A stretch of DNA of 64,000 nt, from the NCBI GenBank assembly GCA_949373235.1, contig CASICQ010000004.1, forward strand, positions 63,934 through 127,933, given 5' to 3'. The notes under the pieces are model-generated. The model searched no databases, was not told where the DNA came from, and saw only the letters and a program-made list of their open reading frames with translations. The translations under genes were made by a program, and so were the position numbers. How positions within the stretch are numbered: position 1 is the stretch's first letter; each line of letters starts with the position of its first letter. This document shows, one piece after another, positions 7,349-50,899 of this stretch. The DNA comes from Candidatus Poseidoniaceae archaeon. GTDB lineage: Archaea; Thermoplasmatota; Poseidoniia; Poseidoniales; Poseidoniaceae.

Positions 7349-7359
7349 GAGGGAACGTC

Positions 7360-9262: not shown

Positions 9263-9322
9263 GCCCCTATGGTCCCGCACGCACCTTCTTGAAGGAAGTA
9301 CGGCTGGGTCGGATTGAATTAC

Positions 9323-10405
9323 ATGCAGATGCAGTTCGGAGAACAACTTCGCTTGACCCTTTTTGGGACAAGCCACGGGCCAAGAGTCGGCGCCGTGTTG
9401 GAAGGGGTTCCTAAGGGACTTATTGTGGATGAAGACGGAATTCGTTCTGCTATGATTTCACGCCGTCCCGGCGGCCGGTATGCGAGCAAACGCAAAGAAG
9501 AAGACAAGGTCGAAGTGTTGAGCGGTGTTGCAGAAGGGCGCACAACTGGCGAATCCATCGAACTCTCCATTGAAAATCAAGATGCAAAATCCAAAGATTA
9601 CAGTTTCCTCCCCAATCACCCCAGACCAGGCCACCAAGACATGGTGATGCACAAGCGTACAAAGGGCCAGGCAGATCTTCGTGGAGGCGGTACATCTTCG
9701 GCACGTTTGACTGCCCCTTTGGTTGCAGCATCAGCGTTTGTTGCACCCTTGCTTGCTTCGCTTGGTGTTGAAATTGAAGCGCAGGTTGGCGCTGTTGGAA
9801 ATGTCATATCTGGGCCGATGCTCGAACAACCTCCAAGGTGGGCTGATGAAGCCTGCAAAGAGATGCGATGCAGAGACCCAGTTGCTGCCCGGGCCATGGT
9901 GGATACCGTTGAAAAGCATCGTATGAGTCTCAATTCTATAGGAAGCAGGGTTGATCTCACGGTTCAAGGGATTCCGTTTGGTTTAGGGGAGCCGTGGTTT
10001 GATGGAATCGAACCCGCTATGGCCCGAGCCATGATGGCAATTCCTGCGGCACGAGGTGTGACGTTTGGTCGGGGTTTCTCTGTTGTTTCCATGAATGGAA
10101 TTGATCACAACGATGCTTGGGGCGGTTCGCCAGAACACCCTGAACCACTTGGAGAGCGTCCTGATGGCGCTTTAGCCGGTTTAGCGACTGGAGCCCCCCT
10201 CTGCTGTTCTGTAGCGTTCAAGCCACCCTCAAGCATCGCTGCGGAGCAAATCACCCTGAACCTCGAAACCGGTACGATGGAACCGCTTACTGTCAAAGGC
10301 AGGCATGACCCCGTGCTCGGCCCCCGTGCGGTTGCTGTGGTCGAAGCAATGGCCACGTTGGTGCTGACGGACCTTGCTCTTCGTGGAGGCTACCTCGATG
10401 AATGA
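9323..10405 (+). CDS. aroC: Chorismate synthase
   Basis: FGTSHG, RRPGG, PRPGHQD, GGGTSSAR, FKPPSSI, KGRHDPV motifs. Confidence 0.95.
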   Translation: MQMQFGEQLRLTLFGTSHGPRVGAVLEGVPKGLIVDEDGIRSAMISRRPGGRYASKRKEEDKVEVLSGVAEGRTTGESIELSIENQDAKSKDYSFLPNHPRPGHQDMVMHKRTKGQADLRGGGTSSARLTAPLVAASAFVAPLLASLGVEIEAQVGAVGNVISGPMLEQPPRWADEACKEMRCRDPVAARAMVDTVEKHRMSLNSIGSRVDLTVQGIPFGLGEPWFDGIEPAMARAMMAIPAARGVTFGRGFSVVSMNGIDHNDAWGGSPEHPEPLGERPDGALAGLATGAPLCCSVAFKPPSSIAAEQITLNLETGTMEPLTVKGRHDPVLGPRAVAVVEAMATLVLTDLALRGGYLDE

Positions 10406-14016: not shown

Positions 14017-15168
14017 TCAAACGGTTGGCACAGGGACTTCTCGTAGGATAGCTTGAATCACTTCACCGGACTCTAGGCCCTTGATTTGATGCTCAGGCTT
14101 GAGAATAATTCGGTGTGCGATAGCCAGTTCAGAAACAGCCTTGATGTCGTCAGGTGTGACGAAGTCACGACCACGAAGGGCTGCTGCTGCACGGGATGTC
14201 TTGAGCAATGCTTGGGAACCACGGGGCGAAGCGCCGACCAGAACACGAGGATCTTCACGGGTTCGTGACACGATTTCGACCATGTACATGCGGAGAGCAG
14301 GGTCGACGTAAACGTCTTCACAAGCTTGTTGCATAGCGATAACTCGCTGTGGGTCAGTGATCACATCGACATCGACGGCGTCCTTACCACGAGCAATACG
14401 TCGGCGGAGAATTTCGTCTTCGTCAGCGCGGTCAGGGTAGCCCACGGACATCTTGAACATGAAACGGTCAAGTTGCGCTTCAGGAAGCGGGTAGGTACCT
14501 TCTTGCTCGACCGGGTTTTGAGTGGCCATAACAATGAACGGTGCAGGGAGTTTGTGAGTAACCGTACCAATGGTCACCTGCTTCTCTTGCATAGCCTCAA
14601 GCAAAGCAGCTTGGGTCTTTGGAGGAGCACGGTTAATCTCGTCAGCAAGAAGAAGGTTGCAGAACAGAGGTCCTGGCTTGAAGGTGAATTCACCCTTCTT
14701 TGCGTCGTAGATGTTGGTACCTGTGATGTCAGCAGGGAGCAAGTCAGGCGTGAATTGGACACGCTTGAAATCGCAACCCAACGCATCAGCGAAGGTGTTG
14801 GTCATCAAGGTCTTCGCCAAACCAGGGTAATCTTCGAAGAGAAGGTTACCGTTCGACAAGATGTTGATCAACACGTTGTCGATAACGTGGGGCTTACCGA
14901 TAATCACTTTCTGCACTTCAGCAGCAATCGCTTGAGAGATTGCGCCGACGTGGGTCAAGCGAGCTTTGACCTCGGGTGTGGCTTGGTGCTTCGGCTGGGC
15001 CGGAGCGGCCGGTGCTGCTGGTGCTGGGGCTGGGGCCGCTGGTGCTGCTGGTGCTGGTGCTGCCGGCATTGGTGGTGCTGGCGCAACAGGTGCTGCGGGG
15101 GCGGCTGGGGCCACTGGCATTGGCGGCGCTGGCGCGGGCGGGGCTGCGGGTGGGGTAGGGGGTTGCAT
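14017..15168 (-). CDS. moxR: MoxR family AAA+ ATPase with Pro/Ala-rich N-terminal arm
   Basis: DYPGLAKT, RVQFTPDLLPADITG, LLADEINRAPPKTQAALLEAM, ATQNPVEQEGTYPLPEAQLDRF. Confidence 0.95.
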   Translation of the reverse strand: MQPPTPPAAPPAPAPPMPVAPAAPAAPVAPAPPMPAAPAPAAPAAPAPAPAAPAAPAQPKHQATPEVKARLTHVGAISQAIAAEVQKVIIGKPHVIDNVLINILSNGNLLFEDYPGLAKTLMTNTFADALGCDFKRVQFTPDLLPADITGTNIYDAKKGEFTFKPGPLFCNLLLADEINRAPPKTQAALLEAMQEKQVTIGTVTHKLPAPFIVMATQNPVEQEGTYPLPEAQLDRFMFKMSVGYPDRADEDEILRRRIARGKDAVDVDVITDPQRVIAMQQACEDVYVDPALRMYMVEIVSRTREDPRVLVGASPRGSQALLKTSRAAAALRGRDFVTPDDIKAVSELAIAHRIILKPEHQIKGLESGEVIQAILREVPVPTV

Positions 15169-16963: not shown

Positions 16964-17944
16964 TCAAACGATTGTCTTTTTCCGGCGAAGCACACTGCAT
17001 GCTGCCAGCATGATGATCGCTTCAAAGGCGAGGAAGCCGGGGATTGTGTTCGATTCAACGTTGAGCCCGTCATCCGAGGCATCGCCGTCGTCGCTGTCCC
17101 CCGAACCAGTCGAGGGTTTCTCTTCACCATCATAGGCAAACACTTCGACGTCAAAGGTTGTGCTTCGAGCAGCGTCATCGCCCTCTGAGATGAGTGAGAT
17201 GGTAATTTCACACGCCCTGCGAGGCTGGCTCTCTGAAGCGACGAGCGTCAACGTCGAGAAGGTGTCTTTGCCGTTTCGAGCATCGGTCGTTTCAACGATC
17301 GTGTTGGTCAATGCATCCAATCCTTCGACCGAAAGGTGTGGGCAACTTCTCACCTGTGCAGATGCGTCCTTAATGGCATCTTTTGCGTTTCCGAGGTTGA
17401 GGATTTGAATCGAAATTTCAACCGACGATCCGGCGTAAAGGTCATCGTTGGAGAGGGTCACTTCAGGCCGCAAGTTGAACATTTTCGGCACGCTTATGTC
17501 GCCTTCTATCTCTTGTGTTTCAGTGGAAGTATCGCCGACTTTTTCTTCTGCCATAACCGTCAGCATGGAATTGTTATCAGGGTTGTATTCGCGAACGTCT
17601 GCATCGTTATCGGTCACCAGCGATATGGTGAAGCTCTTGTTTTCTCCTGCACCGACTGTGATCGTCTCTGGCCCACTGAAGGTGAATGGAACCCAGGTGT
17701 TGACCTCATAGGTCAACTCAAGTTGCACCTGACTCATTCTAGTGTTCTCGACGTAGGCAACGATCTCGCCCTCAATGTCCCAATCATCGTCCAACTCAAC
17801 GGTGTAGCCATCGTCCATATCTGTCGACCATCCAAGCGTCCAACTGGGCGCCTCAAATTGGTCTTGCGCCACAACAGTAGGTGGCAGGCTTAACCCAACC
17901 GTTAGCAGAAATACAAGGAGAAGGGGGAGGGTGCTGCGTTTCAT
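16964..17944 (-). CDS. Secreted surface protein with PGF-CTERM-like anchor
   Basis: Signal peptide; acidic linker then IPGFLAFEAIIMLAACSVL-RRKK. Confidence 0.75.
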   Translation of the reverse strand: MKRSTLPLLLVFLLTVGLSLPPTVVAQDQFEAPSWTLGWSTDMDDGYTVELDDDWDIEGEIVAYVENTRMSQVQLELTYEVNTWVPFTFSGPETITVGAGENKSFTISLVTDNDADVREYNPDNNSMLTVMAEEKVGDTSTETQEIEGDISVPKMFNLRPEVTLSNDDLYAGSSVEISIQILNLGNAKDAIKDASAQVRSCPHLSVEGLDALTNTIVETTDARNGKDTFSTLTLVASESQPRRACEITISLISEGDDAARSTTFDVEVFAYDGEEKPSTGSGDSDDGDASDDGLNVESNTIPGFLAFEAIIMLAACSVLRRKKTIV

Positions 17945-17949
17945 CTTAA

Positions 17950-18927
17950 TCACTCCAGCAACCCTTGTATTGCTCGTTTGGTGAGCACCCGAACCATTGA
18001 TTTGCGGTACCGAGGTGGCAAGGCGGTGTTGTTGACCGGCTTGACGCTCTTTTGCATAGCAGAGGAAAGGGCCTTCACAGAAGCTGCGCCATTCCAGCCA
18101 TCGGCAAAGATGGCTGCGACTTCGTCAGGGTGGCAACGTGGAATTGATTCAAGCGCTGTCGTGGCAATGACAAGCGATGCTGGATCGCCTTCAATCCAAG
18201 AAGCAGCAACACCTGCTTCGGGGAAATCCCATGTGTCACGAACTCGAAGTTTTTGATACGAGCCTGTTCGCTTTGCTGCATCGTCTGGAAGCGTCACTTT
18301 GAGAAGGAATTCTCCTTCTTCAAGCACATTCTTCTTCATCCCATCGAGTTGATAGAACGCGTCAATTGGTAAGGTGCGCGCCCCGTTTGGACCGATGAGG
18401 TGCACGCTGGCGCCCAACACCATCAGTGTAGGTGCAATATCGCCTTGGTAGGTGGCCACACAGAGTGTGTTTTGGTTTGGAATGACGCGACAATCAGCGC
18501 CTGTACCGCAATCTGCTTTATGGCACCAGTCAATCGATCGTCGCCAATCTTCGCCTTGATTGTACCAGAAGCATCGTGTGTCCAAACAGAGGTTACCGCC
18601 CAAGGTTGCGTTGGTTCGAATTAACGATGACGCAACCTTTGAGGCTGCTTGAACGATGACCGGATGCACACCGTTGGCTTCAGTCATGTCCGCCAACCGA
18701 ATCATGCAACCGAGTTCATTTGCAGAAATGGTCGATGTTCCTTCGATTCGTGCGAGCGAGATGACATGCGGCTTGGTGTTGATGTGCCACTTGTAATTTG
18801 GCAGCAAATCGGTTCCGCCAGCGACCCAGTCAAAGGATTCACCAGCAGCCATTAACTCGGCTGCAAGTTCACATGCGGCCTCAACTGTCGTTGGGTGGTG
18901 GAGGGTAAATGGAGGCATCAGCATCAT
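17950..18927 (-). CDS. hcrB: FAD/[4Fe-4S] subunit of XDH-family molybdoenzyme, HcrB-like
   Basis: AGGTDLLPN, ATLGGNLCLDTRC-FWYNQ...WC...C...C-VATYQGDIAP Cys-rich insertion typical of 4-hydroxybenzoyl-CoA reductase beta. Confidence 0.8.
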   Translation of the reverse strand: MMLMPPFTLHHPTTVEAACELAAELMAAGESFDWVAGGTDLLPNYKWHINTKPHVISLARIEGTSTISANELGCMIRLADMTEANGVHPVIVQAASKVASSLIRTNATLGGNLCLDTRCFWYNQGEDWRRSIDWCHKADCGTGADCRVIPNQNTLCVATYQGDIAPTLMVLGASVHLIGPNGARTLPIDAFYQLDGMKKNVLEEGEFLLKVTLPDDAAKRTGSYQKLRVRDTWDFPEAGVAASWIEGDPASLVIATTALESIPRCHPDEVAAIFADGWNGAASVKALSSAMQKSVKPVNNTALPPRYRKSMVRVLTKRAIQGLLE

Positions 18928-21737
18928 TCATCACCGCCCATATGTCGTTGTTCTTTTTTCAGCCAAGCCTTTCCGGCCAGCCCAAGTTCGGCAAGCTGCT
19001 CAGGATCGGGTTCGGTGGCCGTGCGCCAGCCTTCCACTTGATCTTCGAGTGGGATGTTCGGGTCAAAGCCAAACAAGACGCCGTTGACGTACTGACTGGT
19101 ATCTTCGCTGCGTTGTCGCGCTTGATCTCGCGTTTTGTGTTCTGCCGCTCGCTTGACCAAAACCGGTTGCAAGTCGCCGTGTGTGACTCGAGGTGATTCA
19201 AGATCCAGCGGATCGTCAACATCAGCAGCCTTCATGGCTTTCTCGATGCCTTTGAACACGACATCTGGCGTGAGCGGGAGGTCGCGCAGACGAATGCCGA
19301 TGGCGTCGTAGACCGCATTGACCACAGCAGGCAGAATTGGAAGAAGTGGCCCCTCACCTGCTTCCTTGGCACCAAAAGGCCCCTCAGGATCGCAAGATTC
19401 GACGATAATTGGAACCACATGCGGCATTTCATGCACGGATGGGATTTTGTATTCCAAGAGGTTTGGATTTTGCAAATGTCCGGTGCGGCCATAGACCATT
19501 TTCTCAGAGAGAACTTGGCCCAACCCCATGTGGCATGAGCCGATGATTTGACCTTTGACTGCAAGCGGATTGAGGGCTTTTCCACAATCGTGAGCGGCCC
19601 AAACCTTGGTGCACTTGATGATGCCAGTTTCCACATCGACATCAACTTCTGCAACATAAGCGGAGAAGGAGTATGCGGGAGCCAAGCCTGCTGCTGCGCC
19701 TTTGTGAACGCCACCCATTGGGGGGGAACGGTAGGCACCGCTTGCGATGAGTGCACCCTTGTCTTCCTGTGCCTTGTGCAAGGCTTTCAGGTAAGAAACA
19801 CCAATTGCAGGGTCGTGCTTGTAGTAGATCCGGCGATCATTGAGCACCAAATTGTTCGGGTGGTAGCCAAGGATTTCCCAGGCAGCAGCGAGTATTTGTT
19901 CGCGGATTTCAAGCGCTGCGCGGATGGCTGCGTTTGCGTTCATGAACGTAACCCTGCTCGAATAGGAACCCAAATCCACGGGCGAAGTATCGCTTTCATG
20001 GCTTCGAACATGAATCATTTCAAGCGGCAACGCAAGCACTTCGGAAACGACCTGGGCAACAGCGGTTGTCGAACCTTGCCCGATGTCTGCAGCGCCTGTG
20101 TGAACGGTGACGCCTCCATCCATGTCCACTTGGATGTGGACCGTTGCGTGAGGGAATCGGTTTGGATCCCAATGGATTGGCAATCCAGAACCTGAGATGA
20201 AGAAACCACATCCAATGCCAAGACCCTTTCCAAGCGGCATTTGACGGAACTTACTGTCCCAATCTGAGCCTTCTCGTACTTTTTCAAGGGCTTCGCGCAT
20301 TCCATTTGAAGTGATTCGGAAGCCGCTGATGGTTCGGCTGTGAGGGGGCAAGAGGTTGGCCAGGCGAAGATCGATTGGATCGACCTTCATCTGTTCGGAC
20401 ATTTCATCCAAACCAACTTCAACCGCACATCGAGTGTTCACGGCACCGTGGCCTCGCATTGCACCGGATGCTGGTTTGTTGGTCCAAACGCGGGCGCCTG
20501 TGTAATGGAACGAGCCCAATTCGTAAGGCGCTGTAGCGAGCACGCCGTTGTAATAGGAAGTGACGTGTCCAAATGAAGCAAAACCTCCGCCGTCGATGAG
20601 AGCATCGATGTCAAACCCGGATATACGAGCGTCTTCATCCGCCGTCATCTTGACTTCGATGTGACTCGGGTGCCGCCCACGGTTGATCCAGTACACTTCT
20701 TCTCGGTCAAAGGTAATGCGAACAGGTCGGCCTGATTTACGAGCGAGGATGGCTGCGCACATCTCGTGTGGGAAAGGATCTGATTTTCCACCAAAACCGC
20801 CACCGACAAAGGTTCGAATGACGTTGATTTGGTGCATTGGCACATCCAAGACCGTAGCGAGGGCCCTGTGAGTGTAATGAGGGACCTGCTGGGGCGTGTA
20901 GAGTTGCAACCTGCCGTTTGGATCCCAATGGGCAACAACGGCGTGAGGCTCAGTGAACCCGTGATGAACACCAGCCATTTTCCACTTGCCATGGGAAGAA
21001 GCAAGCGGCTTTTCAACAAGCGAGCGGTCTCCGAATTCTTGGAACACTCGCTTTTGAACGTTGGTTCGAGCCAAATGGTACTTGCCTCGCCAGTGAATTG
21101 GTTCATCAGCGTCTTCCAAACCTTTCTTCGGATCGAACACTGGTTCCAACACTTCGTATTCGACTTCAAACAGGTTGAGTGCTTCCATCGCCGTGGCTTC
21201 GTCAACCGCAGCCACACATGCGACAAGATCTCCGACGTGCCTTACCTTTTCAACGGCCATAGCGTGTTCGTCTTTGGTCACAGGAAGCACACCGAATTGG
21301 TGGGGTGAATCTGCGCCAGTTGCGACGGCTAAAACGCCGGGAAGGGCTTCGACTTTGGAGGTGTCAATCGATTTTATCTTCGCGTAATGATGGGGCGAGC
21401 GGAGGATTTTGCCGATCACTTCGTTGGCCAAACGTACGTCATCGCCGTACCAAGCTTGGCCTGTTACTTTCGCGTTGGAATCGACGAGCGCGGTCGGCTT
21501 GCCAACAGAGGTGCCGGTCCGAGCACGATCGTGCACGTGAGCGCCTGCTGGTTGGGCTTCTTTGCCGCCCACCATCTCAGGGATAAAATCGAGATCCCTC
21601 GGCGCCATGGTTGGGTTGGAACCACCCGAGCCAGGAGGGGGGAATGCTTGCTTTCCAGCGACGCGCTTGCCGTCTTTTCGTGTTGTTTTCCCGGCTCCAC
21701 CGGGTTGCTGACGGTATCCTCCTGACATCACAATCAT
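18924..21737 (-). CDS. hcrA: Molybdopterin-binding large subunit of XDH family, HcrA-like
   Basis: QVPHY, FVGGGFGGK, GAMRGHG, GAADIGQGS, GSYSSRVT, GAKEAGEG. Confidence 0.8.
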   Translation of the reverse strand: MIVMSGGYRQQPGGAGKTTRKDGKRVAGKQAFPPPGSGGSNPTMAPRDLDFIPEMVGGKEAQPAGAHVHDRARTGTSVGKPTALVDSNAKVTGQAWYGDDVRLANEVIGKILRSPHHYAKIKSIDTSKVEALPGVLAVATGADSPHQFGVLPVTKDEHAMAVEKVRHVGDLVACVAAVDEATAMEALNLFEVEYEVLEPVFDPKKGLEDADEPIHWRGKYHLARTNVQKRVFQEFGDRSLVEKPLASSHGKWKMAGVHHGFTEPHAVVAHWDPNGRLQLYTPQQVPHYTHRALATVLDVPMHQINVIRTFVGGGFGGKSDPFPHEMCAAILARKSGRPVRITFDREEVYWINRGRHPSHIEVKMTADEDARISGFDIDALIDGGGFASFGHVTSYYNGVLATAPYELGSFHYTGARVWTNKPASGAMRGHGAVNTRCAVEVGLDEMSEQMKVDPIDLRLANLLPPHSRTISGFRITSNGMREALEKVREGSDWDSKFRQMPLGKGLGIGCGFFISGSGLPIHWDPNRFPHATVHIQVDMDGGVTVHTGAADIGQGSTTAVAQVVSEVLALPLEMIHVRSHESDTSPVDLGSYSSRVTFMNANAAIRAALEIREQILAAAWEILGYHPNNLVLNDRRIYYKHDPAIGVSYLKALHKAQEDKGALIASGAYRSPPMGGVHKGAAAGLAPAYSFSAYVAEVDVDVETGIIKCTKVWAAHDCGKALNPLAVKGQIIGSCHMGLGQVLSEKMVYGRTGHLQNPNLLEYKIPSVHEMPHVVPIIVESCDPEGPFGAKEAGEGPLLPILPAVVNAVYDAIGIRLRDLPLTPDVVFKGIEKAMKAADVDDPLDLESPRVTHGDLQPVLVKRAAEHKTRDQARQRSEDTSQYVNGVLFGFDPNIPLEDQVEGWRTATEPDPEQLAELGLAGKAWLKKEQRHMGGDE

Positions 21738-22336
21738 CTCGCGTGGCCCGGCGGCATCTGAGGTTCTTCTGGCCCACTGGGATGTGGGTCAGGGTGAGGG
21801 TTGCTTGCGGGTGCGGCGGGTTCGACTTCGCCACGATGAATAGCGGCTGCGGCTTGAATGGATTCAACAATTTGTTGGTAACCAGTGCAACGGCAAAGGT
21901 TGCCTTCAATCGCCTGAGCCACTTCTTGGTCGCTAGGAGCGTTGTTTTCATTGAGCAGCGCTTGGGCGGTGATGAGGAAACCAGGGGTGCAGAATCCACA
22001 TTGGGAGCCACCATGTTCGGCGAAGCAGGATTGGATCGGAGCAAGATGCGCGCCGTCAGCCAATCCTTCGACGGTCACGATGGAGGTGCCTTCCACTTGC
22101 CCTGCCAAACACAGGCAAGAGATGCGGGGGGTGCCGTCGATCATCACGGTGCAGCAGCCACAGGTTCCAAGGTCGCAGCCTCGTTTCACACCCAGTGTTC
22201 CCACTTTGTCGCGCAGAACATCGAGGAGAATTGCGTTCGAAGGAGCCAGAACTTCAACCGGCCTTCCGTTGACTTCTGCGGACCAGATTTCCTTCTTTGC
22301 GACGGGTATCATTTCAACGTGTTCGGTGCCTACCAT
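21734..22336 (-). CDS. hcrC: 2x[2Fe-2S] small subunit (HcrC/CoxS/XdhA-like)
   Basis: GVKRGCDLGTCGCCTV, SQCGFCTPG, GNLCRCTGY. Confidence 0.88.
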   Translation of the reverse strand: MVGTEHVEMIPVAKKEIWSAEVNGRPVEVLAPSNAILLDVLRDKVGTLGVKRGCDLGTCGCCTVMIDGTPRISCLCLAGQVEGTSIVTVEGLADGAHLAPIQSCFAEHGGSQCGFCTPGFLITAQALLNENNAPSDQEVAQAIEGNLCRCTGYQQIVESIQAAAAIHRGEVEPAAPASNPHPDPHPSGPEEPQMPPGHAR

Positions 22337-26076: not shown

Positions 26077-26235
26077 AGCGACGCCTCGATGTGAGACCAC
26101 AGCGGGGTACTTTTTCAACCCATTGAGGAAATGACTGAATCAACGTCCACCATCTTCGCCCTTTGTAAAAAGGGTAAGGCTGGGCCAATAAACGGGTCAA
26201 CGCTTTTATCGAAAGAGGACTGGATTTCGTACTGT

Positions 26236-29200
26236 ATGGCGGCACCTCGACGAAACACCAACCCCATCCCTCAACCAACTCCCGGTTCAACAGCCGACGC
26301 TGGTACATCTTTGCTCCAACATGCACAACAGACTTCGCAGCCCATGCGCGTCAGAGCGCCGGGCACGGACATCGATGACTCCGAGCGATCACTTATTCGA
26401 TTCTCTCAAATTATTATGCTTGCAATCGCACTGGGCGCCATTTGGTTCAGTATTTACAACATCGCGTTCAGCGACGAAGGGACAAGCAACGCCGATTTCG
26501 CGGTTCTCTTTTTCGGAGGCATTCTATCGGCTGGTTTCGCCATTGGTTGGATTGAGGCTCAAAGTCGCTCAAACGGCCATCAACTCAGAGATGTCCAAGA
26601 TTACATGCTCGGGATTGGGTTCTTTTTCGCCACGGTTGGTACGGTATGGGGCGCACGGTTTGTCCTCGGTTTGTTTGAAGGGGGCACTGTTTTTGGTTCG
26701 CAATCTACAGAAGATGGATGGTATCCGAACGGAAATGGAATCTATGTTCAAACAGCGGCGATCCTCCTGCTGATGGTTGTACAGTACAAACTTTTGCAAC
26801 GGTACAAAGGCCAGACGAAGTTTGGCTGGGCAATCGCATCTTATGCACCAATGATCGTGTTGCTTGGCGCTGGAATGAACATTTGGCTCAAGTGGTCTGA
26901 AGACGTCGTTAGTTATGAAATCGGAATTTCTCTGATCGTTCTGAGCGTGGCTGCAATGGAAATGGCATTGCGTTCCAACAATTCGATCAACCTCACCGTC
27001 ATCGTCATCGCTTCAAGCATAGCGCCAATCTTGTTTGAGAGCGCTCATGATGTCGAAGCTGCCAAACAGGGTGGAGCTCTCTCTCTGCTTGTGTTCATCA
27101 TTGCCATACAAGGGTATTATGCTTCGAAAAAGGAATTGAGAACTGACATCATTCAACGGGCCTCCCTCGTGTTGATCGGCATCATTGTCCTCGCAATGCT
27201 TTTCGCCCGCTCCGATAACCTCTCTCTTATTCTTGGGCCCCTTACTCCAGACGCATTGGGTGGCTTAAGCCAGCACTTCACGCTCATTGTTGCCCTCTGG
27301 TTAGCTGTTCTTGGCTTCTACTTCCCAGCCATGCTTGACCAACGTCTCCCTTGGATCCCGATTGGCTTGGCCTTTGCTCTGATGATCATACCAACCGATG
27401 AAAGCACAGTACCGTGGTTGGTTACCGTCGCAATCCTCCCCTACATGTTGCTGGTTTCAACGGCTACACGGCTTTGGGTGGCAAATGGAACCATGGCGAT
27501 GGCAGCCGTATCTTACATTGTTGTGGACTTGGTGGCGAGCGCTCAAGACATCGCTCAAATTGACACCTATGGGACAGTTGGGTTGCACCTTGTAATCCCG
27601 ATCGCATTGATTGCTGTCTCTGAATTAGCCAATCGGCGTGGGAAAATCGACATTCAGATACACATGCTGGTCATCGGGTGCATTGCTCTATCCCGTGCGG
27701 TGCTGTTTGCCGAGGAATGGTACATGCCTTGGTTTTTCATCGTTTACTTGCTGTACCTTGCCCGCACGGGCTTGGATGGAATTGGAGAGGGTGCATCCCT
27801 TGAGCGTCGCTGGAAGGCAACGCTTGGCGTGTTGCTTGCGAATTCGGTTATGATTGCCTTGGTTGCCTTGGGCCGTTTGGAAGTCCCTGAACAATTGATC
27901 TTTGGAGGGTACAGTTTCCACGTATTCGCCGCAGGTGCAATCTCATACTTCCTATTGCTTTCTGGCCGCAACAAGGAATTCGACCTCGGCATGACTTTGG
28001 CTTGGTCCGGCAGCACCGCCAGCGGCGCTCCGAAGTACGACCCAGAGACGGAGACTTGGAAGGAAACTAAACTTGATGATGATGCAATGATCGAATGGAG
28101 CACCACACACAGTTGGAGCCCACTTGCTCGCAGTTCGTTGATCATCCCTTTCATCATGATGACGGCGGGTATTTTCATAGCAAATGGGATTGAATCAGAA
28201 GAACAGATTAGAGGTTTTGTTTCAAAACCGGTAGGCATTCTTCTTTTAGCCTTGCCAATTTCTTGCTTGGTTTGGGAAATTCTTGATTTGAAAACCATCA
28301 CCTCGAGATCAAGAGCGACCGCAGTGTGGATTCTTTTCGGCATGGGACTTGGACCTTCAGTTTTTATCAACCTCCTTCGCGAAGAAATGCTTGGTATGAG
28401 CCAGTACGCTGGCAAGTTCATTTTACCGGCTGCAATTCTGCTTGATCTCACCCTCTTAGCTGCGCCGCTTGTCGTTGCTTGGGCAATCGAACGCCGTGGG
28501 CTCGACAAAGCCGGCATCTCCGCTCCTGCGGATCTCGCCGCTATGATTGGGTTGATTGGTATCGCTTGCCTTGACACTACAGGTGGCTTACTGATGATCC
28601 CAATGCTGGCTCTCGTCACGTACCAATCGGTGCGATACGGCCACAGTTTGGCGTTGATTCTGGCACCCTTAGCATTGGTTCTCACCAACAACATCTGGTT
28701 GGATCTCCAAGGCTTTGGCTGGAAGTTGTCAGAGACCTTCCCCTCGTGGGGCCTTGATGAGCGGTCGATGTTCTACAGCCTTGGCCTTTCTCGGCTCAGC
28801 GGGGTCTTGGTCGTCTTGCAAATGTCTTACATTTTGATGGCTCAATTCTCAAAGAAGGAAAATAAGCACCAAAAGGCATTGCCTTGGCTGGGTGCCTGGG
28901 TCTGGATGGCCATTGGACTGATGGCTTGCTTCCCTGGCATGGACTGGTTCTTATGGATGCCATTGTTCTTCACCGGAGCCCTCATGCTCAACGCTTGGTT
29001 CAACGGCCAAGTCCAATACTTACCTGTGCTTGGATTTGCTCAGTTTATTTCCCTGATCATCGCTATTGGAGGCCAATCTTGGGGCAACAGTGAGTTGGAG
29101 ATTGTTTCTTGGGCGGCGTTGCTTACGGGCGCTACCGCTCTTGGGTTTTCTGTTTTGCACGAGAGTGACATTTTGTACAAGAATTTCAAGGAAGGCCAAA

Positions 29201-30303
29201 ATCTGGAAAACAGCACCTCCGTATTCATCCACCCCGAAACAATCGAGCAACGCCAAGAGTTGAATGAACAATTCCAGTTGGTGGGCTACCTCGGCCTGAC
29301 GTTGAGCTTCACTGTTCTTTTGGGTATTGGTACGATGGTGGGCGCTTTGATGCTCACGAAACAGGTGGCAACCAAGGGCCAATACAACATCGTTTTGTTG
29401 GCACCGCTTGCCCACAGCCTCGCCTTCTATAATTTCTTGATGCAGGCAGACGTTCTCCATTCCGATCTCAATCTTTCGCTTGTTGGAGGCCTGTTAATCG
29501 CTGAAGGCTTTGCTTTGACCTATGGCTCGATTAAGAACGATGCAATCTATGATTACGCTGGATTTGACTGGCTAAATGATAATGCCTTCTTCGAATTCAC
29601 AGACCGAATGGGCATGATCGGGGTTGGAACCATCATTGCAGGGATTTTCTTCCTCATCAACAACCCAGATTGGGACACCCTCACTTATGGGTTGACAACC
29701 GTGGTGTTGATTGGCGTCGGGATCCAAGGTTACAGCGACGACTATGATGCACGATGGCGCCGTGTGTTTGGTGGTTACGGCTCGATCTTTACAGCGTTCA
29801 TCACTGCGTTCACCCTTGATGGGTTAATGCAAAACGTGAGCATTATGGGCGCCGCGATCGTTGCAATGGGTTGGTTGTTCATGAACAGCAGTCGCTTAGG
29901 CGACACAAATGAACTCTACATCCCAGATCCGAATGCGGTTCAACCGGTGATGGCGAGCGAACAACCTGCGCAACTTGCCCCTCAAGAAAAATCACAGCCA
30001 GAACCTGCAGCCGCCCCTGCATCAAAGGAGGCTGTTGAACTGGTTGAAGAAATTGAACTGGTTGTTCCAAAATCAACGGGCCAAACCGCACCAAAGAAGG
30101 AGAACCTTCCTTTGCAGATTCCTCAGCCAGTGCTCGCTGTTAAAGAGCGAGTGAAGACCCGCCATGGATTTGAGATTGAATTGCCTGATGACATGTTTAA
30201 CACCATCTTGTCGTCCATTGACTTGACGCCGCATGAAGGGTACAAGCCAGTCGTTTCGTTTGGCCCCAGAGGAGAAATTGTTCTGGAATTTGAGGCGATT
30301 TAA
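26236..30303 (+). CDS. Very large polytopic membrane protein, function unknown
   Basis: About 1355 aa, nearly continuous hydrophobic helices (roughly 30+), small C-terminal soluble domain (ORF track start 26131). Confidence 0.8.
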   Translation: MAAPRRNTNPIPQPTPGSTADAGTSLLQHAQQTSQPMRVRAPGTDIDDSERSLIRFSQIIMLAIALGAIWFSIYNIAFSDEGTSNADFAVLFFGGILSAGFAIGWIEAQSRSNGHQLRDVQDYMLGIGFFFATVGTVWGARFVLGLFEGGTVFGSQSTEDGWYPNGNGIYVQTAAILLLMVVQYKLLQRYKGQTKFGWAIASYAPMIVLLGAGMNIWLKWSEDVVSYEIGISLIVLSVAAMEMALRSNNSINLTVIVIASSIAPILFESAHDVEAAKQGGALSLLVFIIAIQGYYASKKELRTDIIQRASLVLIGIIVLAMLFARSDNLSLILGPLTPDALGGLSQHFTLIVALWLAVLGFYFPAMLDQRLPWIPIGLAFALMIIPTDESTVPWLVTVAILPYMLLVSTATRLWVANGTMAMAAVSYIVVDLVASAQDIAQIDTYGTVGLHLVIPIALIAVSELANRRGKIDIQIHMLVIGCIALSRAVLFAEEWYMPWFFIVYLLYLARTGLDGIGEGASLERRWKATLGVLLANSVMIALVALGRLEVPEQLIFGGYSFHVFAAGAISYFLLLSGRNKEFDLGMTLAWSGSTASGAPKYDPETETWKETKLDDDAMIEWSTTHSWSPLARSSLIIPFIMMTAGIFIANGIESEEQIRGFVSKPVGILLLALPISCLVWEILDLKTITSRSRATAVWILFGMGLGPSVFINLLREEMLGMSQYAGKFILPAAILLDLTLLAAPLVVAWAIERRGLDKAGISAPADLAAMIGLIGIACLDTTGGLLMIPMLALVTYQSVRYGHSLALILAPLALVLTNNIWLDLQGFGWKLSETFPSWGLDERSMFYSLGLSRLSGVLVVLQMSYILMAQFSKKENKHQKALPWLGAWVWMAIGLMACFPGMDWFLWMPLFFTGALMLNAWFNGQVQYLPVLGFAQFISLIIAIGGQSWGNSELEIVSWAALLTGATALGFSVLHESDILYKNFKEGQNLENSTSVFIHPETIEQRQELNEQFQLVGYLGLTLSFTVLLGIGTMVGALMLTKQVATKGQYNIVLLAPLAHSLAFYNFLMQADVLHSDLNLSLVGGLLIAEGFALTYGSIKNDAIYDYAGFDWLNDNAFFEFTDRMGMIGVGTIIAGIFFLINNPDWDTLTYGLTTVVLIGVGIQGYSDDYDARWRRVFGGYGSIFTAFITAFTLDGLMQNVSIMGAAIVAMGWLFMNSSRLGDTNELYIPDPNAVQPVMASEQPAQLAPQEKSQPEPAAAPASKEAVELVEEIELVVPKSTGQTAPKKENLPLQIPQPVLAVKERVKTRHGFEIELPDDMFNTILSSIDLTPHEGYKPVVSFGPRGEIVLEFEAI

Positions 30304-32288: not shown

Positions 32289-33164
32289 TCAAACCCGCCA
32301 TGTGGCGTCGCTTGGATTCACGCCTTTGTGAAGTGACATAATTTGAGCCACAACCGCAACTGCAATTTCTTCGGGCGATTCAGCTCCAATGTTGACGCCA
32401 ATGGGGCATATCACTTGATCAAGAACCTCTTGTTTGACACCCTGATTCAAAGCAGCCTGTTCAAAGGCCTGCCATTTTGATCGGCTCCCAATCACACCAA
32501 CTCGAGGCGACAATCGGCCATCAAGAGGGGCGTTCTGATCCTGTAACGCAGCCAGAAGGCCCAACAAGCGAGTTTGATCTTCGGCCCAATCATGACCAAG
32601 CAGCAAAACATCCGAGTACCGACTGAGCGTCATTGCGTCGTGATGTTCGACAAAAGAAGATGCTTCCATGTGAAAGTGATCTTTGGCCTGAGGGAACAGG
32701 TTTGCGTTGCAAAATTCTTCACGGGTATCGTGAATGGAATGCGACCATCCAAGCGCCTCAAGGGCCGGAGCAATTGCTTGGGCGCAGTGGCCTCCTCCAA
32801 TCAGCAACACGTGTGGCATTGGAACAAGAACCTCCATACTGAGGGTAACGCGCCCCCCACATAGGGAATCTAACGCCGTTACTTCATAGCCCTTCGCACC
32901 CTTATTCAAACCGAATGTGTGCACTTCACCAGCAGGCAAGTTATGCTTGCTAAGCAGCAAGGCGCTTCGCTTCAGCACTGTCATTTCAAGACCAGCCCCC
33001 CCAACCGTACCGACCCATTCCTCATCCAAAGAGCGCATGGCAAGTCGAGCGCCTGCCTTGCCTGGAACGCTTCCAGAAGTATCGATGACGCTTGCCAAGA
33101 CGACCTTGTGGCCCGCCTCGAGTTGAGCCAATGCCCAAGCGAGAACGGATGCTGTCATATTCAT
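32289..33164 (-). CDS. xdhC: XdhC/CoxI family molybdoenzyme maturation factor
   Basis: GSVPGKAGA, GTVGGAGLE, LCGG, IGGGHCA, GVIGSRSK, CPIGVNIGAESPEEIAVAVVAQI. Confidence 0.92.
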   Translation of the reverse strand: MNMTASVLAWALAQLEAGHKVVLASVIDTSGSVPGKAGARLAMRSLDEEWVGTVGGAGLEMTVLKRSALLLSKHNLPAGEVHTFGLNKGAKGYEVTALDSLCGGRVTLSMEVLVPMPHVLLIGGGHCAQAIAPALEALGWSHSIHDTREEFCNANLFPQAKDHFHMEASSFVEHHDAMTLSRYSDVLLLGHDWAEDQTRLLGLLAALQDQNAPLDGRLSPRVGVIGSRSKWQAFEQAALNQGVKQEVLDQVICPIGVNIGAESPEEIAVAVVAQIMSLHKGVNPSDATWRV

Positions 33165-33208
33165 CGCTTGAAGCGCTTACACATACCCTTTGCCCTTGTG
33201 CTCGGTGC

Positions 33209-33796
33209 TTATTCAAGCAACACAGATTCAAGGCCCAGCAAAGCGTCTAAATCTTCTGGAGCGTCGATGTTAAGCCCAATGTGCGGGCAGGAACCTTGCA
33301 CAAGTTGCGGCGCAATGAGGTCTCGAAGAGGTGTCTGGGGTGGCGCAGCGAGCACAGCCTCAATGTCGGGGTCATGAAGGAGCAAGGGATGGCCGGATCG
33401 GCCCTCATACGCCAGCGTTGAGGTGGCGGCTTGCCCCATGAGCAAGCGAGCATCGTTCGAAGTCCAACCCGGGCGGTCAACTGGGGCGATGACGACGCGC
33501 CTTGGCATGCGTCCCTTGTCCCCCATAAGCGACATGATGCCGCATTGAACACTCCCTGTACGCCCTTGTTCCGGCTTCTTGTTCACAACCACCGTCGCAT
33601 CCACGGCCTTTGTCATGATTTCAAACAGCAGAGACTGGCGAGTGACGACGACGATTGGGGTGCAGCCTGCTTGTTGCAAACGTTGCACTGCAAGACCGAC
33701 GAGGGTTGTCGGGCCAATGGGGACCAGTGCTTTTGGTTGACCCAACCGGCTGCTTGCCCCAGCGGCGAGAACAAGCGCTGGGCATCCCCGGACCAT
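33209..33796 (-). CDS. mocA: Molybdenum cofactor nucleotidyltransferase (MocA-like NTP transferase)
   Basis: VLAAGASSRLGQPKAL, G..GSVQCG, APVDRP, GHPLL, NIDAPEDL; adjacent to xdhC. Confidence 0.75.
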   Translation of the reverse strand: MVRGCPALVLAAGASSRLGQPKALVPIGPTTLVGLAVQRLQQAGCTPIVVVTRQSLLFEIMTKAVDATVVVNKKPEQGRTGSVQCGIMSLMGDKGRMPRRVVIAPVDRPGWTSNDARLLMGQAATSTLAYEGRSGHPLLLHDPDIEAVLAAPPQTPLRDLIAPQLVQGSCPHIGLNIDAPEDLDALLGLESVLLE

Positions 33797-43489: not shown

Positions 43490-43499
43490 TTCGACACCA

Positions 43500-49798: not shown

Positions 49799-50014
49799 AT
49801 GGCCGAAGAACTGACTGAATTGGAAGCACGTATCTTTGAATGGATTCGTCAATCCGATTTCGAAACAGTAGCATGGTCCACAGCGAAGGCTGCTCGTTCG
49901 TTCAAGGTCAAGCAAGATGAAGTCTACGAAGCGGTCGCTGCGTTGACCCGCAAGGTTCCAGATCGAATTCAAGTGTTCTACAAAGATGGCTCAGTCCACA
50001 TTGCTGCTGAATGA
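49799..50014 (+). CDS. Small winged-helix-like protein
   Basis: 71 aa, LTELEARIFEWIR...TAKAARSFKVKQDEVYEAVAAL then a beta hairpin. Confidence 0.6.
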   Translation: MAEELTELEARIFEWIRQSDFETVAWSTAKAARSFKVKQDEVYEAVAALTRKVPDRIQVFYKDGSVHIAAE

Positions 50015-50767: not shown

Positions 50768-50868
50768 GCTTTCGCTAAAGAAGATTGAAAGATTTGCAAG
50801 ACCGCCTTCAAGCCGCCCTAAATCCCACTCCTACATATAGTTTAGGTCGCCCTAAATATTTCATTTTC

Positions 50869-50877: not shown

Positions 50878-50899
50878 TACTGCGAGGCAACCTCATCCA

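What the first reader, a model, noticed from the sequence alone, without database searches (positions are those of the whole stretch)
17950..22336. Complete hcrCAB-like (4-hydroxybenzoyl-CoA reductase-type) molybdoenzyme in a presumed aerobic marine archaeon
Seen: gene order small-large-FAD; the FAD subunit has the extra four-Cys insertion (RC-x15-C...C...C); the large subunit has GAMRGHG and KEAGEG. Known: order hcrCAB, the [4Fe-4S] insertion and (as I recall) GAMRGHG characterise Thauera 4-HBCR, an anaerobic aromatic-degradation enzyme; CO dehydrogenases have AYxCSFR or AYxGAGR, absent here. Inference: an uncharacterised aromatic or N-heterocycle (de)hydroxylase; substrate and reaction direction unknown.
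Basis: partly seen in the sequence, partly recalled or inferred. Interest (0 to 1): 0.7.

Follow-up and report, generated by a model that had tools for sequence, protein, structure and literature searches.

The report
HcrCAB-like molybdenum enzyme of Poseidoniales
A Marine Group II archaeon, a group described as oxygen-using, carries and transcribes a complete three-subunit molybdenum enzyme whose nearest studied relative is the "anaerobic" 4-hydroxybenzoyl-CoA reductase, but it sits on a large unstudied side branch that is never found next to benzoyl-CoA genes, so its substrate is still open.

Summary
Three tightly packed minus-strand genes encode a 2x[2Fe-2S] subunit (21734-22336), a 937-aa Mo subunit (18924-21737) and an FAD subunit (17950-18927). 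The FAD subunit carries the four-Cys loop of HcrB.

[quoted passage not shown] All three score below NCBI's equivalog cut-offs.

In trees the Mo subunit lies inside the HcrA-containing clade, far from E. coli XdhA, XdhD and PaoC. Its closest sisters include two metagenomic enzymes embedded in genuine bcrCBAD benzoyl-CoA reductase clusters.

The archaeal enzyme itself belongs to an "orphan" clade with at least 577 species-level hits, all from MAGs. None of 80 sampled loci has bcr or aryl-CoA ligase genes within 6 kb.

The enzyme occurs in both Poseidoniales families. It has clade-specific N- and C-terminal extensions. XdhC and MocA-like maturation genes lie about 10 kb away. Marine metatranscriptome assemblies cover it.

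Verdict: a real, expressed, order-wide variant of the HcrCAB enzyme type. It most likely uses 4-HBCR-like, ferredoxin-linked electron wiring. Substrate and reaction direction are unproven.

Databases already label it automatically, under inconsistent names. I found no paper that analyses it.

The parts
21734..22336 (-). Small subunit (200 aa), 2x[2Fe-2S], HcrC-like, with a roughly 35-aa Pro-rich C-terminal tail
   Evidence: Pfam Fer2_2 at 1.1e-30 plus Fer2. Best NCBIfam model is TIGR03193, 4-HBCR gamma, at 179.6 bits, below the 257.8 cut-off. Cys at 54, 59, 62, 74/76 and at 113, 116, 148, 150.
18924..21737 (-). Large Mo-cofactor subunit (937 aa; the true start may be Met4), HcrA-like
   Evidence: Pfam Ald_Xan_dh_C, MoCoBD_1 and MoCoBD_2. 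TIGR03194 scores 775.6 bits, against 514 for XdhA. 1RM6_A matches at 593.6 bits; the next hit, CoxL, scores 261. The AF2 model matches 1RM6 at TM 0.96 and rmsd 1.8 A. Trees.
17950..18927 (-). FAD subunit (325 aa), HcrB-like
   Evidence: Pfam FAD_binding_5. TIGR03195 scores 232.7 bits over the full length, below the 404.55 cut-off. 1RM6_B matches at E 3.4e-48.
18460..18588 (-). Cys-rich insertion of the FAD subunit (residues 114-156), a putative [4Fe-4S] site
   Evidence: Cys119, 135, 146 and 156 align with Cys122, 138, 146 and 155 of the 1RM6_B chain. The loop is conserved in all Hcr-like FAD subunits aligned and absent from E. coli XdhB. It is present in 50 of 52 FAD ORFs of the orphan family.
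20445..20465 (-). GAMRGHG active-site loop (residues 425-431, Arg428)
   Evidence: Invariant across 64 Poseidoniales and orphan-family sequences.
19350..19367 (-). KEAGEG motif (residues 791-796) holding the putative catalytic Glu795
   Evidence: The Glu is kept here, but is Gln in representatives P0126 and P0130.
21513..21737 (-). N-terminal extension of the large subunit (about 75 aa) with motifs conserved across Poseidoniales
   Evidence: Alignment A1, with invariant G7, Q10, P12, F32, PGSGG 35-39, D48, P53 and others. Residues about 45-80 have pLDDT 74-89.
18927..19235 (-). C-terminal extension of the large subunit (about 100 aa; Y.NG.LFG.DP...W...AW...E), specific to Poseidoniales
   Evidence: Conserved in A1. 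Among the 73 large-subunit ORFs listed from the 80 loci, all 15 Poseidoniales-clade ORFs have it, and the bacterial and other Thermoplasmata ORFs do not. Helix 856-875 has pLDDT 82-95 by 10-residue blocks.
32289..33164 (-). XdhC-family Mo-cofactor insertion chaperone, about 10 kb upstream
   Evidence: Pfam XdhC_CoxI plus XdhC_C. NCBIfam XdhC-related models score below their cut-offs. The same pair lies near the operon in L003.
33209..33796 (-). MobA/MocA-like nucleotidyl transferase (probable cytidylyltransferase that makes MCD)
   Evidence: Pfam NTP_transf_3 at 3.1e-25. The match to TIGR03310 MocA is weak: 69 bits against a 186 cut-off.
16964..17953 (-). Adjacent 329-aa secreted or membrane-anchored protein, tightly abutting the FAD gene. 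It is a neighbour, not shown to be a functional part.
   Evidence: A GTGA overlap, or an ATG 8 nt after the stop. Conserved downstream in L001-L003 and, with homologs at 25-41% identity by tblastn, in 12 of the 80 genome loci, all of the Poseidoniales clade. Only a marginal CARDB match. No NCBIfam match.

Best explanation
[quoted passage not shown] It has the cofactor set and electron wiring of 4-hydroxybenzoyl-CoA reductase: Mo-pterin (probably the cytosine dinucleotide form), two [2Fe-2S] clusters, FAD, and an extra [4Fe-4S] cluster on a four-Cys loop of the FAD subunit. It belongs to an orphan sister clade of benzoyl-CoA-reductase-linked Hcr enzymes. That clade was inherited vertically within Poseidoniales (both MGIIa and MGIIb). 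My preferred mechanism is 4-HBCR-like. A low-potential ferredoxin-type carrier docks at the surface [4Fe-4S] loop. Electrons pass through FAD and the two [2Fe-2S] clusters to Mo. There, with Glu795 and Arg428, a phenolic OH para to an electron-withdrawing, thioester-type group is removed. The substrate need not be 4-hydroxybenzoyl-CoA, and the product is not handed to a neighbouring benzoyl-CoA reductase. Shown here: the genes, the motifs, the clade position, order-wide conservation, nearby maturation genes, and coverage by metatranscriptome assemblies. Inferred: cluster binding, the ferredoxin partner, the substrate class and the reductive direction. The confidence given is for the whole statement. 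The 'HcrCAB-type orphan-clade enzyme' part alone I put at about 0.9, and the reductive phenolic-thioester reaction at about 0.35.
For: All three subunits hit the 4-HBCR models best and 1RM6 best. Foldseek gives TM 0.96 and rmsd 1.8 A to 1RM6, against 0.81-0.87 (most 0.81-0.84) for the CODH, quinoline oxidoreductase, XDH and PaoC chains ranked next. In the careful tree, Poseidoniales + P0121 + (P0122, P0123) form a clade with 100/99 support. It is sister to Thauera HcrA + P0136 inside a 22-row clade with 100/99 support. P0122 sits in a bcrC-bcrB-bcrA-bcrD::ligase cluster, with three of the four bcr genes above their NCBIfam equivalog cut-offs. P0123 sits next to bcrB and bcrC. Of 164 positions invariant in Poseidoniales plus the orphan family, P0122 keeps 95% and P0123 91%; Thauera HcrA keeps 70% and E. 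coli XdhA 53%. The four-Cys loop is conserved and the catalytic Glu is kept. XdhC, a MocA-like gene and a MoeB-like gene are in the window. Homologs at 70-99% identity occur in Poseidoniaceae and Thalassarchaeaceae with conserved synteny. Marine metatranscriptome contigs cover nearly the whole operon at near-identity, at depth 25-75 in runs X1 and X2.
Against: No aryl-CoA ligase, bcr or Box gene, and no CxxCxxCxxxC[PAG] ferredoxin-motif ORF, was found among the roughly 41 of 48 long ORFs of the 64-kb window that I scanned. None of 80 orphan-clade loci has bcr or ligase genes within 6 kb. No neighbour recurs across phyla. All three subunits score below the equivalog cut-offs. The Thauera-type enzyme differs from this clade at residues beside the active-site motifs: K318R, S319T, D320E, H356P, H716V, H736W. 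A Cys-rich insertion at the same place also occurs in aldehyde oxidoreductase FAD subunits such as PaoB, so it does not fix the direction of electron flow. Thauera 4-HBCR is oxygen-sensitive, as cited in 10.1101/2025.01.17.632430, and the host is regarded as aerobic.
Confidence: 0.55

Rival explanations
1. It is a true 4-hydroxybenzoyl-CoA reductase ortholog. 4-Hydroxybenzoate is activated by a CoA ligase encoded elsewhere, dehydroxylated to benzoyl-CoA, and then degraded by a reductive (Bcr/Bam) or oxygen-dependent (Box) benzoyl-CoA pathway encoded elsewhere in the genome.
For: It lies in the HcrA clade. The bcr-linked sisters P0122 and P0123 score the same on TIGR03194 (773-785 bits) as the archaeal enzymes (775-820 bits), so missing the cut-off is not disqualifying. 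91-95% of the invariant core is shared with those sisters.
Against: No ligase, bcr or Box gene was found among the scanned ORFs of the 64-kb window, in the conserved neighbourhoods, or in 80 related loci. No paper links Poseidoniales to 4-HBCR; the four papers that hold both 'Poseidoniales' and 'benzoyl-CoA' do not connect them where I read them, and the one I opened reports bcr in other Thermoplasmatota. The orphan clade separates from the bcr-linked enzymes with SH-aLRT 96.
Confidence: 0.12
2. It works in the ordinary oxidative direction of the family. It hydroxylates an aromatic, N-heterocyclic or aldehyde substrate at Mo, and sends the electrons out through FAD and the [4Fe-4S] loop to ferredoxin, another carrier or O2, as periplasmic PaoABC is thought to do.
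For: The host is regarded as aerobic. The enzyme is a stand-alone operon with housekeeping neighbours in most phyla, like detoxifying aldehyde oxidoreductases. A Cys-rich insertion at the same place occurs in PaoB and another aldehyde oxidase FAD subunit. Most characterised family members are oxidative (10.1101/2025.01.17.632430).
Against: PaoC, XdhA and XdhD are phylogenetically distant, and PaoC matches at only about 200 bits. The nearest relatives with informative context are bcr-linked, that is, reductive. The two characterised enzymes named as closest in the papers read, 4-HBCR and Ucd, are both reductive dehydroxylases.
Confidence: 0.25
3. It is the xanthine dehydrogenase of purine catabolism or salvage, as implied for MGIIb MAGs ('xdhC and yagS') by Damashek et al. 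2021 (PMC9723583).
For: PMC9723583 notes putative xdh genes together with high pbuG (xanthine/uracil permease) transcription in Thalassarchaeaceae. XdhA models are the second-best NCBIfam hits at 506-514 bits.
Against: XdhA models score far below the HcrA model and below their own cut-offs of 780 and 916. E. coli XdhA lies outside the clade and shares only 53% of the invariant positions. The residue after GGGFGGK, where bovine XDH has Glu802 by my recollection, is Ser319. E. coli XdhB lacks the Cys loop.
Confidence: 0.05

Closest known systems
4-Hydroxybenzoyl-CoA reductase HcrCAB of Thauera aromatica (PDB 1RM6/1SB3); HbaBCD of Rhodopseudomonas palustris
   Same: Gene order is small-large-FAD. 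All cofactor motifs are present, including the four-Cys [4Fe-4S] loop of the FAD subunit. The GAMRGHG and AKEA.EG motifs are shared. It is the best sequence and fold match: 593.6 bits, TM 0.96, rmsd 1.8 A. Both lie in the same 100/99-supported clade.
   Different: Identity is only about 41-42%. Scores fall below all three equivalog cut-offs. 30% of this clade's invariant positions differ in Thauera HcrA, several beside active-site motifs. Poseidoniales add an extra Cys and a 3+1-residue insertion in the loop, a 2-residue insertion at HWDPN, and N- and C-terminal extensions. There is no benzoyl-CoA pathway context. The host is regarded as aerobic.
Uncharacterised bcr-linked Hcr-like enzymes from metagenomes (P0122 on L007/L008; P0123 on L009)
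   Same: They are the closest relatives with informative context, at 45-50% identity, and keep 91-95% of the invariant core, including GGKSDPF.HE, GRHP, AHDCG and HMG. Their TIGR03194 scores are the same.
   Different: Those enzymes sit inside bcrCBAD, ligase and thiolase clusters; the archaeal one does not. They branch just outside the orphan clade.
Orphan Hcr-like family of Planctomycetota, Calditrichota/KSB1, Acidobacteriota, Gemmatimonadota, marine 'Delta/Rickettsiales' MAGs and other Thermoplasmata (P0121 family)
   Same: The archaeal enzyme is in the same clade (SH-aLRT 96) at 50-57% identity. 164 positions are invariant across both. The Cys loop is present in 50 of 52 FAD subunits. The genes are mostly stand-alone operons.
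   Different: They lack the Poseidoniales terminal extensions. In Calditrichota/KSB1 a DUF1028 gene is inserted between the large and FAD genes, and generic beta-oxidation genes lie nearby. All are from MAGs and none is characterised.
Urolithin C dehydroxylase UcdCFO/UcdhABC of Enterocloster (PMC11760930; 10.1101/2025.01.17.632430)
   Same: It is the second known reductive dehydroxylase of the xanthine-oxidase family. It is MCD-dependent, and XdhC co-expression raised its activity in E. coli.
   Different: Ucd lacks the [4Fe-4S] loop and uses NADH. It is only about 33% identical to 4-HBCR. I did not place it in my trees.
Periplasmic aldehyde oxidoreductase PaoABC of E. coli (PDB 5G5G)
   Same: It is a three-subunit enzyme whose FAD subunit has a Cys-rich insertion at the same place and is annotated 'FAD-binding Fe-S subunit'.
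   Different: Gene order is small-FAD-large. PaoC is very distant: 200 bits, the outgroup in the tree, and it keeps 44% of the invariant positions.

Membership tests
Xanthine-oxidase family of Mo hydroxylases (three-subunit bacterial/archaeal type) | Mo-binding subunit with the Ald_Xan_dh_C, MoCoBD_1 and MoCoBD_2 domains and the catalytic Glu | tested here: met
   Pfam E-values from 5e-26 to 7e-71. Glu795 in KEAGEG aligns with the family Glu.
Xanthine-oxidase family of Mo hydroxylases (three-subunit bacterial/archaeal type) | A 2x[2Fe-2S] subunit and an FAD subunit, plus XdhC/MocA-type maturation genes | tested here: met
   Fer2_2, Fer2 and FAD_binding_5. Cys motifs. XdhC and NTP_transf_3 genes at 32289-33796.
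4-Hydroxybenzoyl-CoA reductase (HcrCAB/HbaBCD; TIGR03193/4/5 equivalogs) | Gene order small-large-FAD | tested here: met
   The same order is seen in L006, L007, L011, L012 and L013.
4-Hydroxybenzoyl-CoA reductase (HcrCAB/HbaBCD; TIGR03193/4/5 equivalogs) | Four-Cys [4Fe-4S] insertion in the FAD subunit | tested here: met
   Met at the sequence level only. Cys119, 135, 146 and 156 align with Cys122, 138, 146 and 155 of 1RM6_B. Cluster binding was not testable.
4-Hydroxybenzoyl-CoA reductase (HcrCAB/HbaBCD; TIGR03193/4/5 equivalogs) | Large subunit falls in the HcrA clade rather than with XDH, AOR or CODH | tested here: met
   The HcrA-containing clades have 100/99 support, with E. coli XdhA, XdhD and PaoC outside. 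However, the enzyme is not inside the Thauera-type subclade.
4-Hydroxybenzoyl-CoA reductase (HcrCAB/HbaBCD; TIGR03193/4/5 equivalogs) | Scores at or above NCBI's curated equivalog cut-offs | tested here: not met
   775.6 against 994.55, 232.7 against 404.55, and 179.6 against 257.8. Among the relatives tested, only the Thauera-type P0136 passes, at 1301.7.
4-Hydroxybenzoyl-CoA reductase (HcrCAB/HbaBCD; TIGR03193/4/5 equivalogs) | Genomic association with an aryl-CoA ligase and a benzoyl-CoA-consuming pathway | tested here: not met
   None among the scanned ORFs of the window. 0 of 80 related loci have such genes within 6 kb. The rest of the genome could not be searched.
4-Hydroxybenzoyl-CoA reductase (HcrCAB/HbaBCD; TIGR03193/4/5 equivalogs) | Ferredoxin-dependent dehydroxylation of 4-hydroxybenzoyl-CoA | not testable with these tools
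   This needs an enzyme assay.
Xanthine dehydrogenase (XdhABC/PucCDE type) | Equivalog-level match to XdhA or PucD, and grouping with XdhA | tested here: not met
   514.2 against a cut-off of 780, 506.1 against 916, and 387.1 against 783.65. E. coli XdhA falls outside the clade.
Aerobic CO dehydrogenase (CoxSML) | Active-site loop AYRCSFR (form I) or AYRGAGR (form II) | tested here: not met
   Both motifs are absent. CODH models score 278-306 bits against cut-offs of 950-991.
PaoABC-type aldehyde oxidoreductase | PaoC-like Mo subunit and paoABC gene order | tested here: not met
   PaoC model NF041671 scores 287.6 against a cut-off of 1180. PaoC serves as the outgroup in the tree. The gene order differs.

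The most novel reading that the evidence does not exclude
The orphan Hcr-like clade is present in at least 577 species-level MAG genomes, including all sampled Poseidoniales, which are among the most abundant archaea of the oxic surface ocean. On this reading it is a functionally distinct class of ferredoxin-linked molybdenum enzyme. In oxygen-using cells it would run a 4-HBCR-type low-potential reductive dehydroxylation, or a still undescribed reaction, on a common phenolic or other dissolved-organic-matter compound, independently of any benzoyl-CoA reductase. The Poseidoniales-specific terminal extensions would adapt it to a lineage-specific partner or protect it from oxygen.
Probability: 0.25. 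Interest if true: 0.75.

Novelty: new variant of a known kind. Interest (0 to 1): 0.5.

Why it matters
Poseidoniales are abundant, uncultured planktonic archaea described as (photo)heterotrophs that metabolise dissolved organic matter such as lipids and peptides (PMC9723583). An order-wide, strongly conserved enzyme covered by metatranscriptome assemblies, whose only characterised close relative removes a phenolic hydroxyl in strictly anaerobic aromatic breakdown, points to an unrecognised reaction in their handling of dissolved organic matter. It also shows that database labels for it are unreliable: it is variously called '4-HBCR alpha', 'aldehyde oxidase' and 'xanthine dehydrogenase', and one published reading is xanthine catabolism. 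More broadly, the orphan clade is large and phylogenetically wide, and has no characterised member, so one biochemical assignment would annotate hundreds of genomes. The practical route exists: E. coli TP1000 plus XdhC co-expression worked for the related Ucd enzyme.

Tried and rejected
I therefore could not search the window's own genome for aryl-CoA ligase, Bcr, Bam, Box, ferredoxin or 2-oxoacid:ferredoxin oxidoreductase genes.

2. A tblastn search of plasmids gave only XDH-family hits at 35% identity or less, with no useful annotated references.

3. I tested whether the Poseidoniales C-terminal extension is a fused copy of the 141-aa ORF that lies between the large and FAD genes in L006. 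There is no similarity (E 1.7).

4. No ORF in the window carries a CxxCxxCxxxC[PAG] ferredoxin motif.

5. De novo clustering of neighbours in 80 loci gave one apparent cross-phylum family. It was made of Arg-rich antisense shadow ORFs in GC-rich DNA, so I rejected it.

6. I considered the MoxR/DUF58/DUF4350 genes downstream as CoxD/CoxE-like maturation factors. I rejected this as unsupported. The DUF4350, MoxR and DUF58 genes recur only at Poseidoniales-clade loci among the 80 genome loci (13, 6 and 6 loci). The 329-aa and DUF4350 proteins look membrane-anchored or secreted from their sequences. No such genes accompany the enzyme in other phyla.

7. I considered the ABC transporter at 49991-52904 as a molybdate importer. 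Its permease is PhnE-like instead.

8. The review I wanted for 4-HBCR active-site residues (PMC4080432) is not held. Residue-level comparison of a CoA channel was therefore not possible, and model coordinates are not exposed.

9. I did not run a second structure prediction for the FAD subunit, because Cys geometry cannot be read from the tool output.

Full report
**Observation.**
They are a 200-aa small subunit (21734-22336), a 937-aa large subunit (18924-21737) and a 325-aa FAD subunit (17950-18927). The junctions are ATGA overlaps.

Pfam finds Fer2_2 and Fer2 in the small subunit. It finds Ald_Xan_dh_C, MoCoBD_1 and MoCoBD_2 in the large subunit, and FAD_binding_5 in the FAD subunit. GAMRGHG is at residues 425-431 and KEAGEG at 791-796, and neither CODH loop motif is present.

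The FAD subunit has Cys at 114, 119, 135, 140, 146 and 156. In the phmmer alignment to 1RM6 chain B (E 3.4e-48), Cys119, 135, 146 and 156 pair with the chain's Cys122, 138, 146 and 155. From memory, those four are the [4Fe-4S] ligands of HcrB. The spacing is C-x15-C-x10-C-x9-C, so the loop is 3+1 residues longer than in Thauera and carries one extra Cys.

**Which family.**
All three subunits hit NCBI's 4-HBCR models best, but all three score below the curated equivalog cut-offs:
- TIGR03194: 775.6 bits against a cut-off of 994.55.
- TIGR03195: 232.7 against 404.55.
- TIGR03193: 179.6 against 257.8.

The next-best model for the large subunit, XdhA, scores 514 bits. Among solved structures, 1RM6_A scores 593.6 bits and the next hit, CoxL, 261. 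An AF2 model (pLDDT 82.2, pTM 0.86) superposes on 1RM6 A/D with TM 0.96 and rmsd 1.8 A. The CODH, quinoline oxidoreductase, XDH and PaoC chains ranked next give TM 0.81-0.87.

I searched 1.84 billion 50%-identity cluster representatives. I then built trees with Thauera HcrA (residues 10-762, copied from the PDB alignment) and with E. coli XdhA, XdhD and PaoC taken from NC_000913.3.

In the careful IQ-TREE run of 44 rows:
- Poseidoniales form a 100/100 clade.
- They join P0121 with 87/76 support.
- That group joins (P0122, P0123) in a 100/99 clade.
- This is sister (93/81) to Thauera HcrA + P0136 and to P0129.
- All of these lie inside nested clades with 100/99 support.
- E. coli XdhA, XdhD and PaoC lie far outside.

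The refuting outcome, grouping with xanthine or aldehyde oxidoreductases, did not occur.

**What the neighbours in the tree are.**
P0122 (49-50% identity) lies on contigs where it is preceded by four benzoyl-CoA reductase genes. Scores against cut-offs are: bcrC 530.6/421, bcrB 711.5/487, bcrA 575.2/578, and bcrD 325.5/313, the last fused to an acyl-CoA ligase. An SDR and a thiolase follow. P0123 (45-48% identity, small and large subunits fused) lies next to bcrB (616.8), bcrC (431.8), XdhC and a MocA-like gene.

These two are therefore very probably real hydroxybenzoyl-CoA reductases. Yet they score 773-785 bits on TIGR03194, the same as the archaeal enzymes at 775-820. Only the Thauera-type P0136 passes the cut-off, at 1301.7. 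Missing the cut-off is thus weak evidence against a 4-HBCR-like reaction.

Of 164 positions invariant across 64 Poseidoniales and P0121-family sequences (A3), the share kept is:
- P0122: 95%.
- P0123: 91%.
- P0136: 73%.
- Thauera HcrA: 70%.
- E. coli XdhA: 53%.

The Thauera type differs beside active-site motifs, at K318R, S319T, D320E, H356P, H716V, H736W and H287Y. The bcr-linked sisters share the archaeal residues GGKSDPF.HE, GRHP, AHDCG and HMG.

**The orphan clade.**
P0121's relatives form a large family at about 60% identity to it and 50-57% to the query. It is found in MAGs labelled Planctomycetota, Wallbacteria, Calditrichota/KSB1, Acidobacteriota, Gemmatimonadota, Krumholzibacteriota, marine 'Deltaproteobacteria/Rickettsiales', and other Thermoplasmata.

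In the 80 loci kept, with 6-kb flanks, tblastn found:
- The small subunit in 72 loci and the FAD subunit in 73.
- A MocA-like gene in 15 and XdhC in 10.
- bcrA, bcrB, bcrC, bcrD and the ligase in 0.

De novo clustering of neighbours found no partner shared across phyla. The one recurrent context is in Calditrichota/KSB1. There the order is ACAD - small - large - DUF1028 - FAD, among generic enoyl-CoA hydratase, thiolase, aldehyde dehydrogenase and 3-hydroxyacyl-CoA dehydrogenase genes. That is a faint hint of CoA-ester metabolism.

In an 82-row tree the orphan clade has SH-aLRT 96, with P0122 and P0123 just outside it (99). Poseidoniales (15 rows, support 100, stem length 0.49) lie in a 99-supported group with two other Thermoplasmata and three Planctomycetota. 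The tool flags the Planctomycetota join as a meeting of long branches. The FAD-subunit Cys loop is present in 50 of 52 orphan-family ORFs.

**Within Poseidoniales.**
Hits at 91-99% identity are labelled Candidatus Poseidoniaceae. Hits at 70-73% are labelled Candidatus Thalassarchaeaceae, in clusters of up to about 1000 sequences that include Tara Oceans genes. The tree recovers the split between the two families. The enzyme is therefore order-wide and looks vertically inherited.

Synteny is conserved down to 72% identity: S8 peptidase, often an acyltransferase, then small - large - FAD - an approximately 328-aa exported protein - DUF4350 - MoxR - DUF58. XdhC (32289-33164) and a MocA-like nucleotidyl transferase (33209-33796) lie about 10 kb upstream, and a MoeB-like ThiF-rhodanese protein is at 42326-43510.

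The large subunit has an N-terminal extension of about 75 aa and a C-terminal extension of about 100 aa. Both carry motifs conserved across the order. Among the large-subunit ORFs of the 80 loci, the C-terminal extension appears only in the Poseidoniales clade, and its helix 856-875 is modelled with pLDDT 82-95. GC content is unremarkable, so this is not a recent island.

**Expression.**
Two marine metatranscriptome runs hold 93% of the operon's sampled 31-mers. Their contigs cover nearly the whole operon with only a few base differences, at depth 25-75. The nearby MoxR gene reaches 300-820 and the flanks about 20-35. The uneven depth argues for RNA rather than contaminating DNA. However, contig depth is a poor expression measure, and the sample's depth and oxygen level are coded. 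I therefore claim only that the operon is transcribed in seawater.

**Literature.**
No paper in the searchable library combines 4-HBCR with Marine Group II or Poseidoniales. Four papers hold both 'Poseidoniales' and 'benzoyl-CoA'. I opened one, and it does not link the two. The only touching statement I found is in Damashek et al. 2021 (PMC9723583). It reads 'xdhC and yagS' in MGIIb MAGs as putative xanthine dehydrogenase. Public databases label the large subunit inconsistently, as 4-HBCR alpha, aldehyde oxidase or XDH-family protein.

Earlier notes of this scan on other Poseidoniales genomes reached the same general reading. I treated them as leads only. The trees, contexts and invariant-position counts above were made here.

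**Mechanism.**
*Shown.* The cofactor-binding motifs for a Mo / 2x[2Fe-2S] / FAD / [4Fe-4S] chain are complete. The catalytic Glu and the Arg of the RGHG loop are kept. Maturation genes lie nearby. The genes are transcribed and strongly constrained.

*Inferred.* The loop binds a cluster and exchanges electrons with a ferredoxin-type carrier. Chemistry at Mo is removal or insertion of an OH on an sp2 carbon.

I prefer the 4-HBCR-like reductive reaction on a phenolic thioester-type substrate, at about 0.35. The reason is that the only relatives with informative context are bcr-linked and share 91-95% of the invariant core.

The total absence of ligase, bcr and Box context in 80 loci keeps two alternatives alive: an oxidative role (0.25) and another substrate. 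So do the host's oxic lifestyle and the Cys-rich insertion at the same place in PaoB-type FAD subunits. Xanthine dehydrogenase is unlikely (0.05).

**Limits.**
The key co-occurrence test is therefore undone. Model coordinates are not exposed, so I could not check the Cys-cluster geometry or the substrate channel. Thauera HcrA and HcrB were reconstructed from the aligned parts of PDB search output. The [4Fe-4S] ligand numbering and the bovine Glu802 correspondence rest on my recollection.

Noticed in passing
window 6551-8370 and 9314-10405: Genes of the archaeal shikimate route lie 8-15 kb from the operon: a DeoC/LacD-family aldolase, type II 3-dehydroquinate synthase and chorismate synthase. 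Relatives (L001/L002) also have a GHMP kinase next to chorismate synthase. This is probably only conserved synteny, but these are aromatic-ring genes.
   Followed up: no
window 26131-30303 (+): A 1390-aa ORF, apparently almost entirely membrane-spanning, with no Pfam match. It lies between the operon and the XdhC/MocA genes and is conserved at the same place in L001/L002.
   Followed up: no
window 14017-15168 (-): The MoxR-type AAA_3 ATPase has an N-terminal Pro/Ala-rich low-complexity tract of about 60 aa. It shows the highest contig depth of the region in the metatranscriptomes (300-820).
   Followed up: partly
L001 12811-13784: In one 97%-identical relative (a JGI contig) the FAD subunit is called as two ORFs of 146 and 157 aa. 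This is a frameshift or an assembly error. The ENA copy (L002) is intact at 322 aa.
   Followed up: no
L007 3929-6565 (also L008 1661-4297): BcrD, a benzoyl-CoA reductase subunit (325.5 bits against a cut-off of 312.85), is fused to an AMP-forming acyl-CoA ligase in one 878-aa protein, directly upstream of an Hcr-like operon. Activation and ring reduction are joined on one polypeptide.
   Followed up: partly
L013 10402-11436; also L036, L044, L058, L064, L068: In Calditrichota/KSB1 a DUF1028 gene is inserted between the large-subunit and FAD-subunit genes of the orphan Hcr-like operon, and an acyl-CoA dehydrogenase gene precedes the small subunit.
   Followed up: partly
P0126 and P0130 (representatives): A sub-branch of the Hcr-like clade has Gln in place of the family's catalytic Glu (KEAGQG).
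   Followed up: no
window 49991-52904: An ABC transporter whose permease scores at the threshold of the phosphonate PhnE model (216.0 against 216.7), beside a 308-aa protein with no family match and a divergently oriented ABC ATPase gene. It may be a phosphonate importer.
   Followed up: partly
window 45434-47255 (-): A run of riboflavin and flavin cofactor genes: riboflavin synthase (Lum_binding), a cytidylyltransferase-like or FAD-synthetase-like gene, and DHBP synthase.
   Followed up: no
window 58636-63981 (-): A 1781-aa ORF at the window end, not analysed.
   Followed up: no
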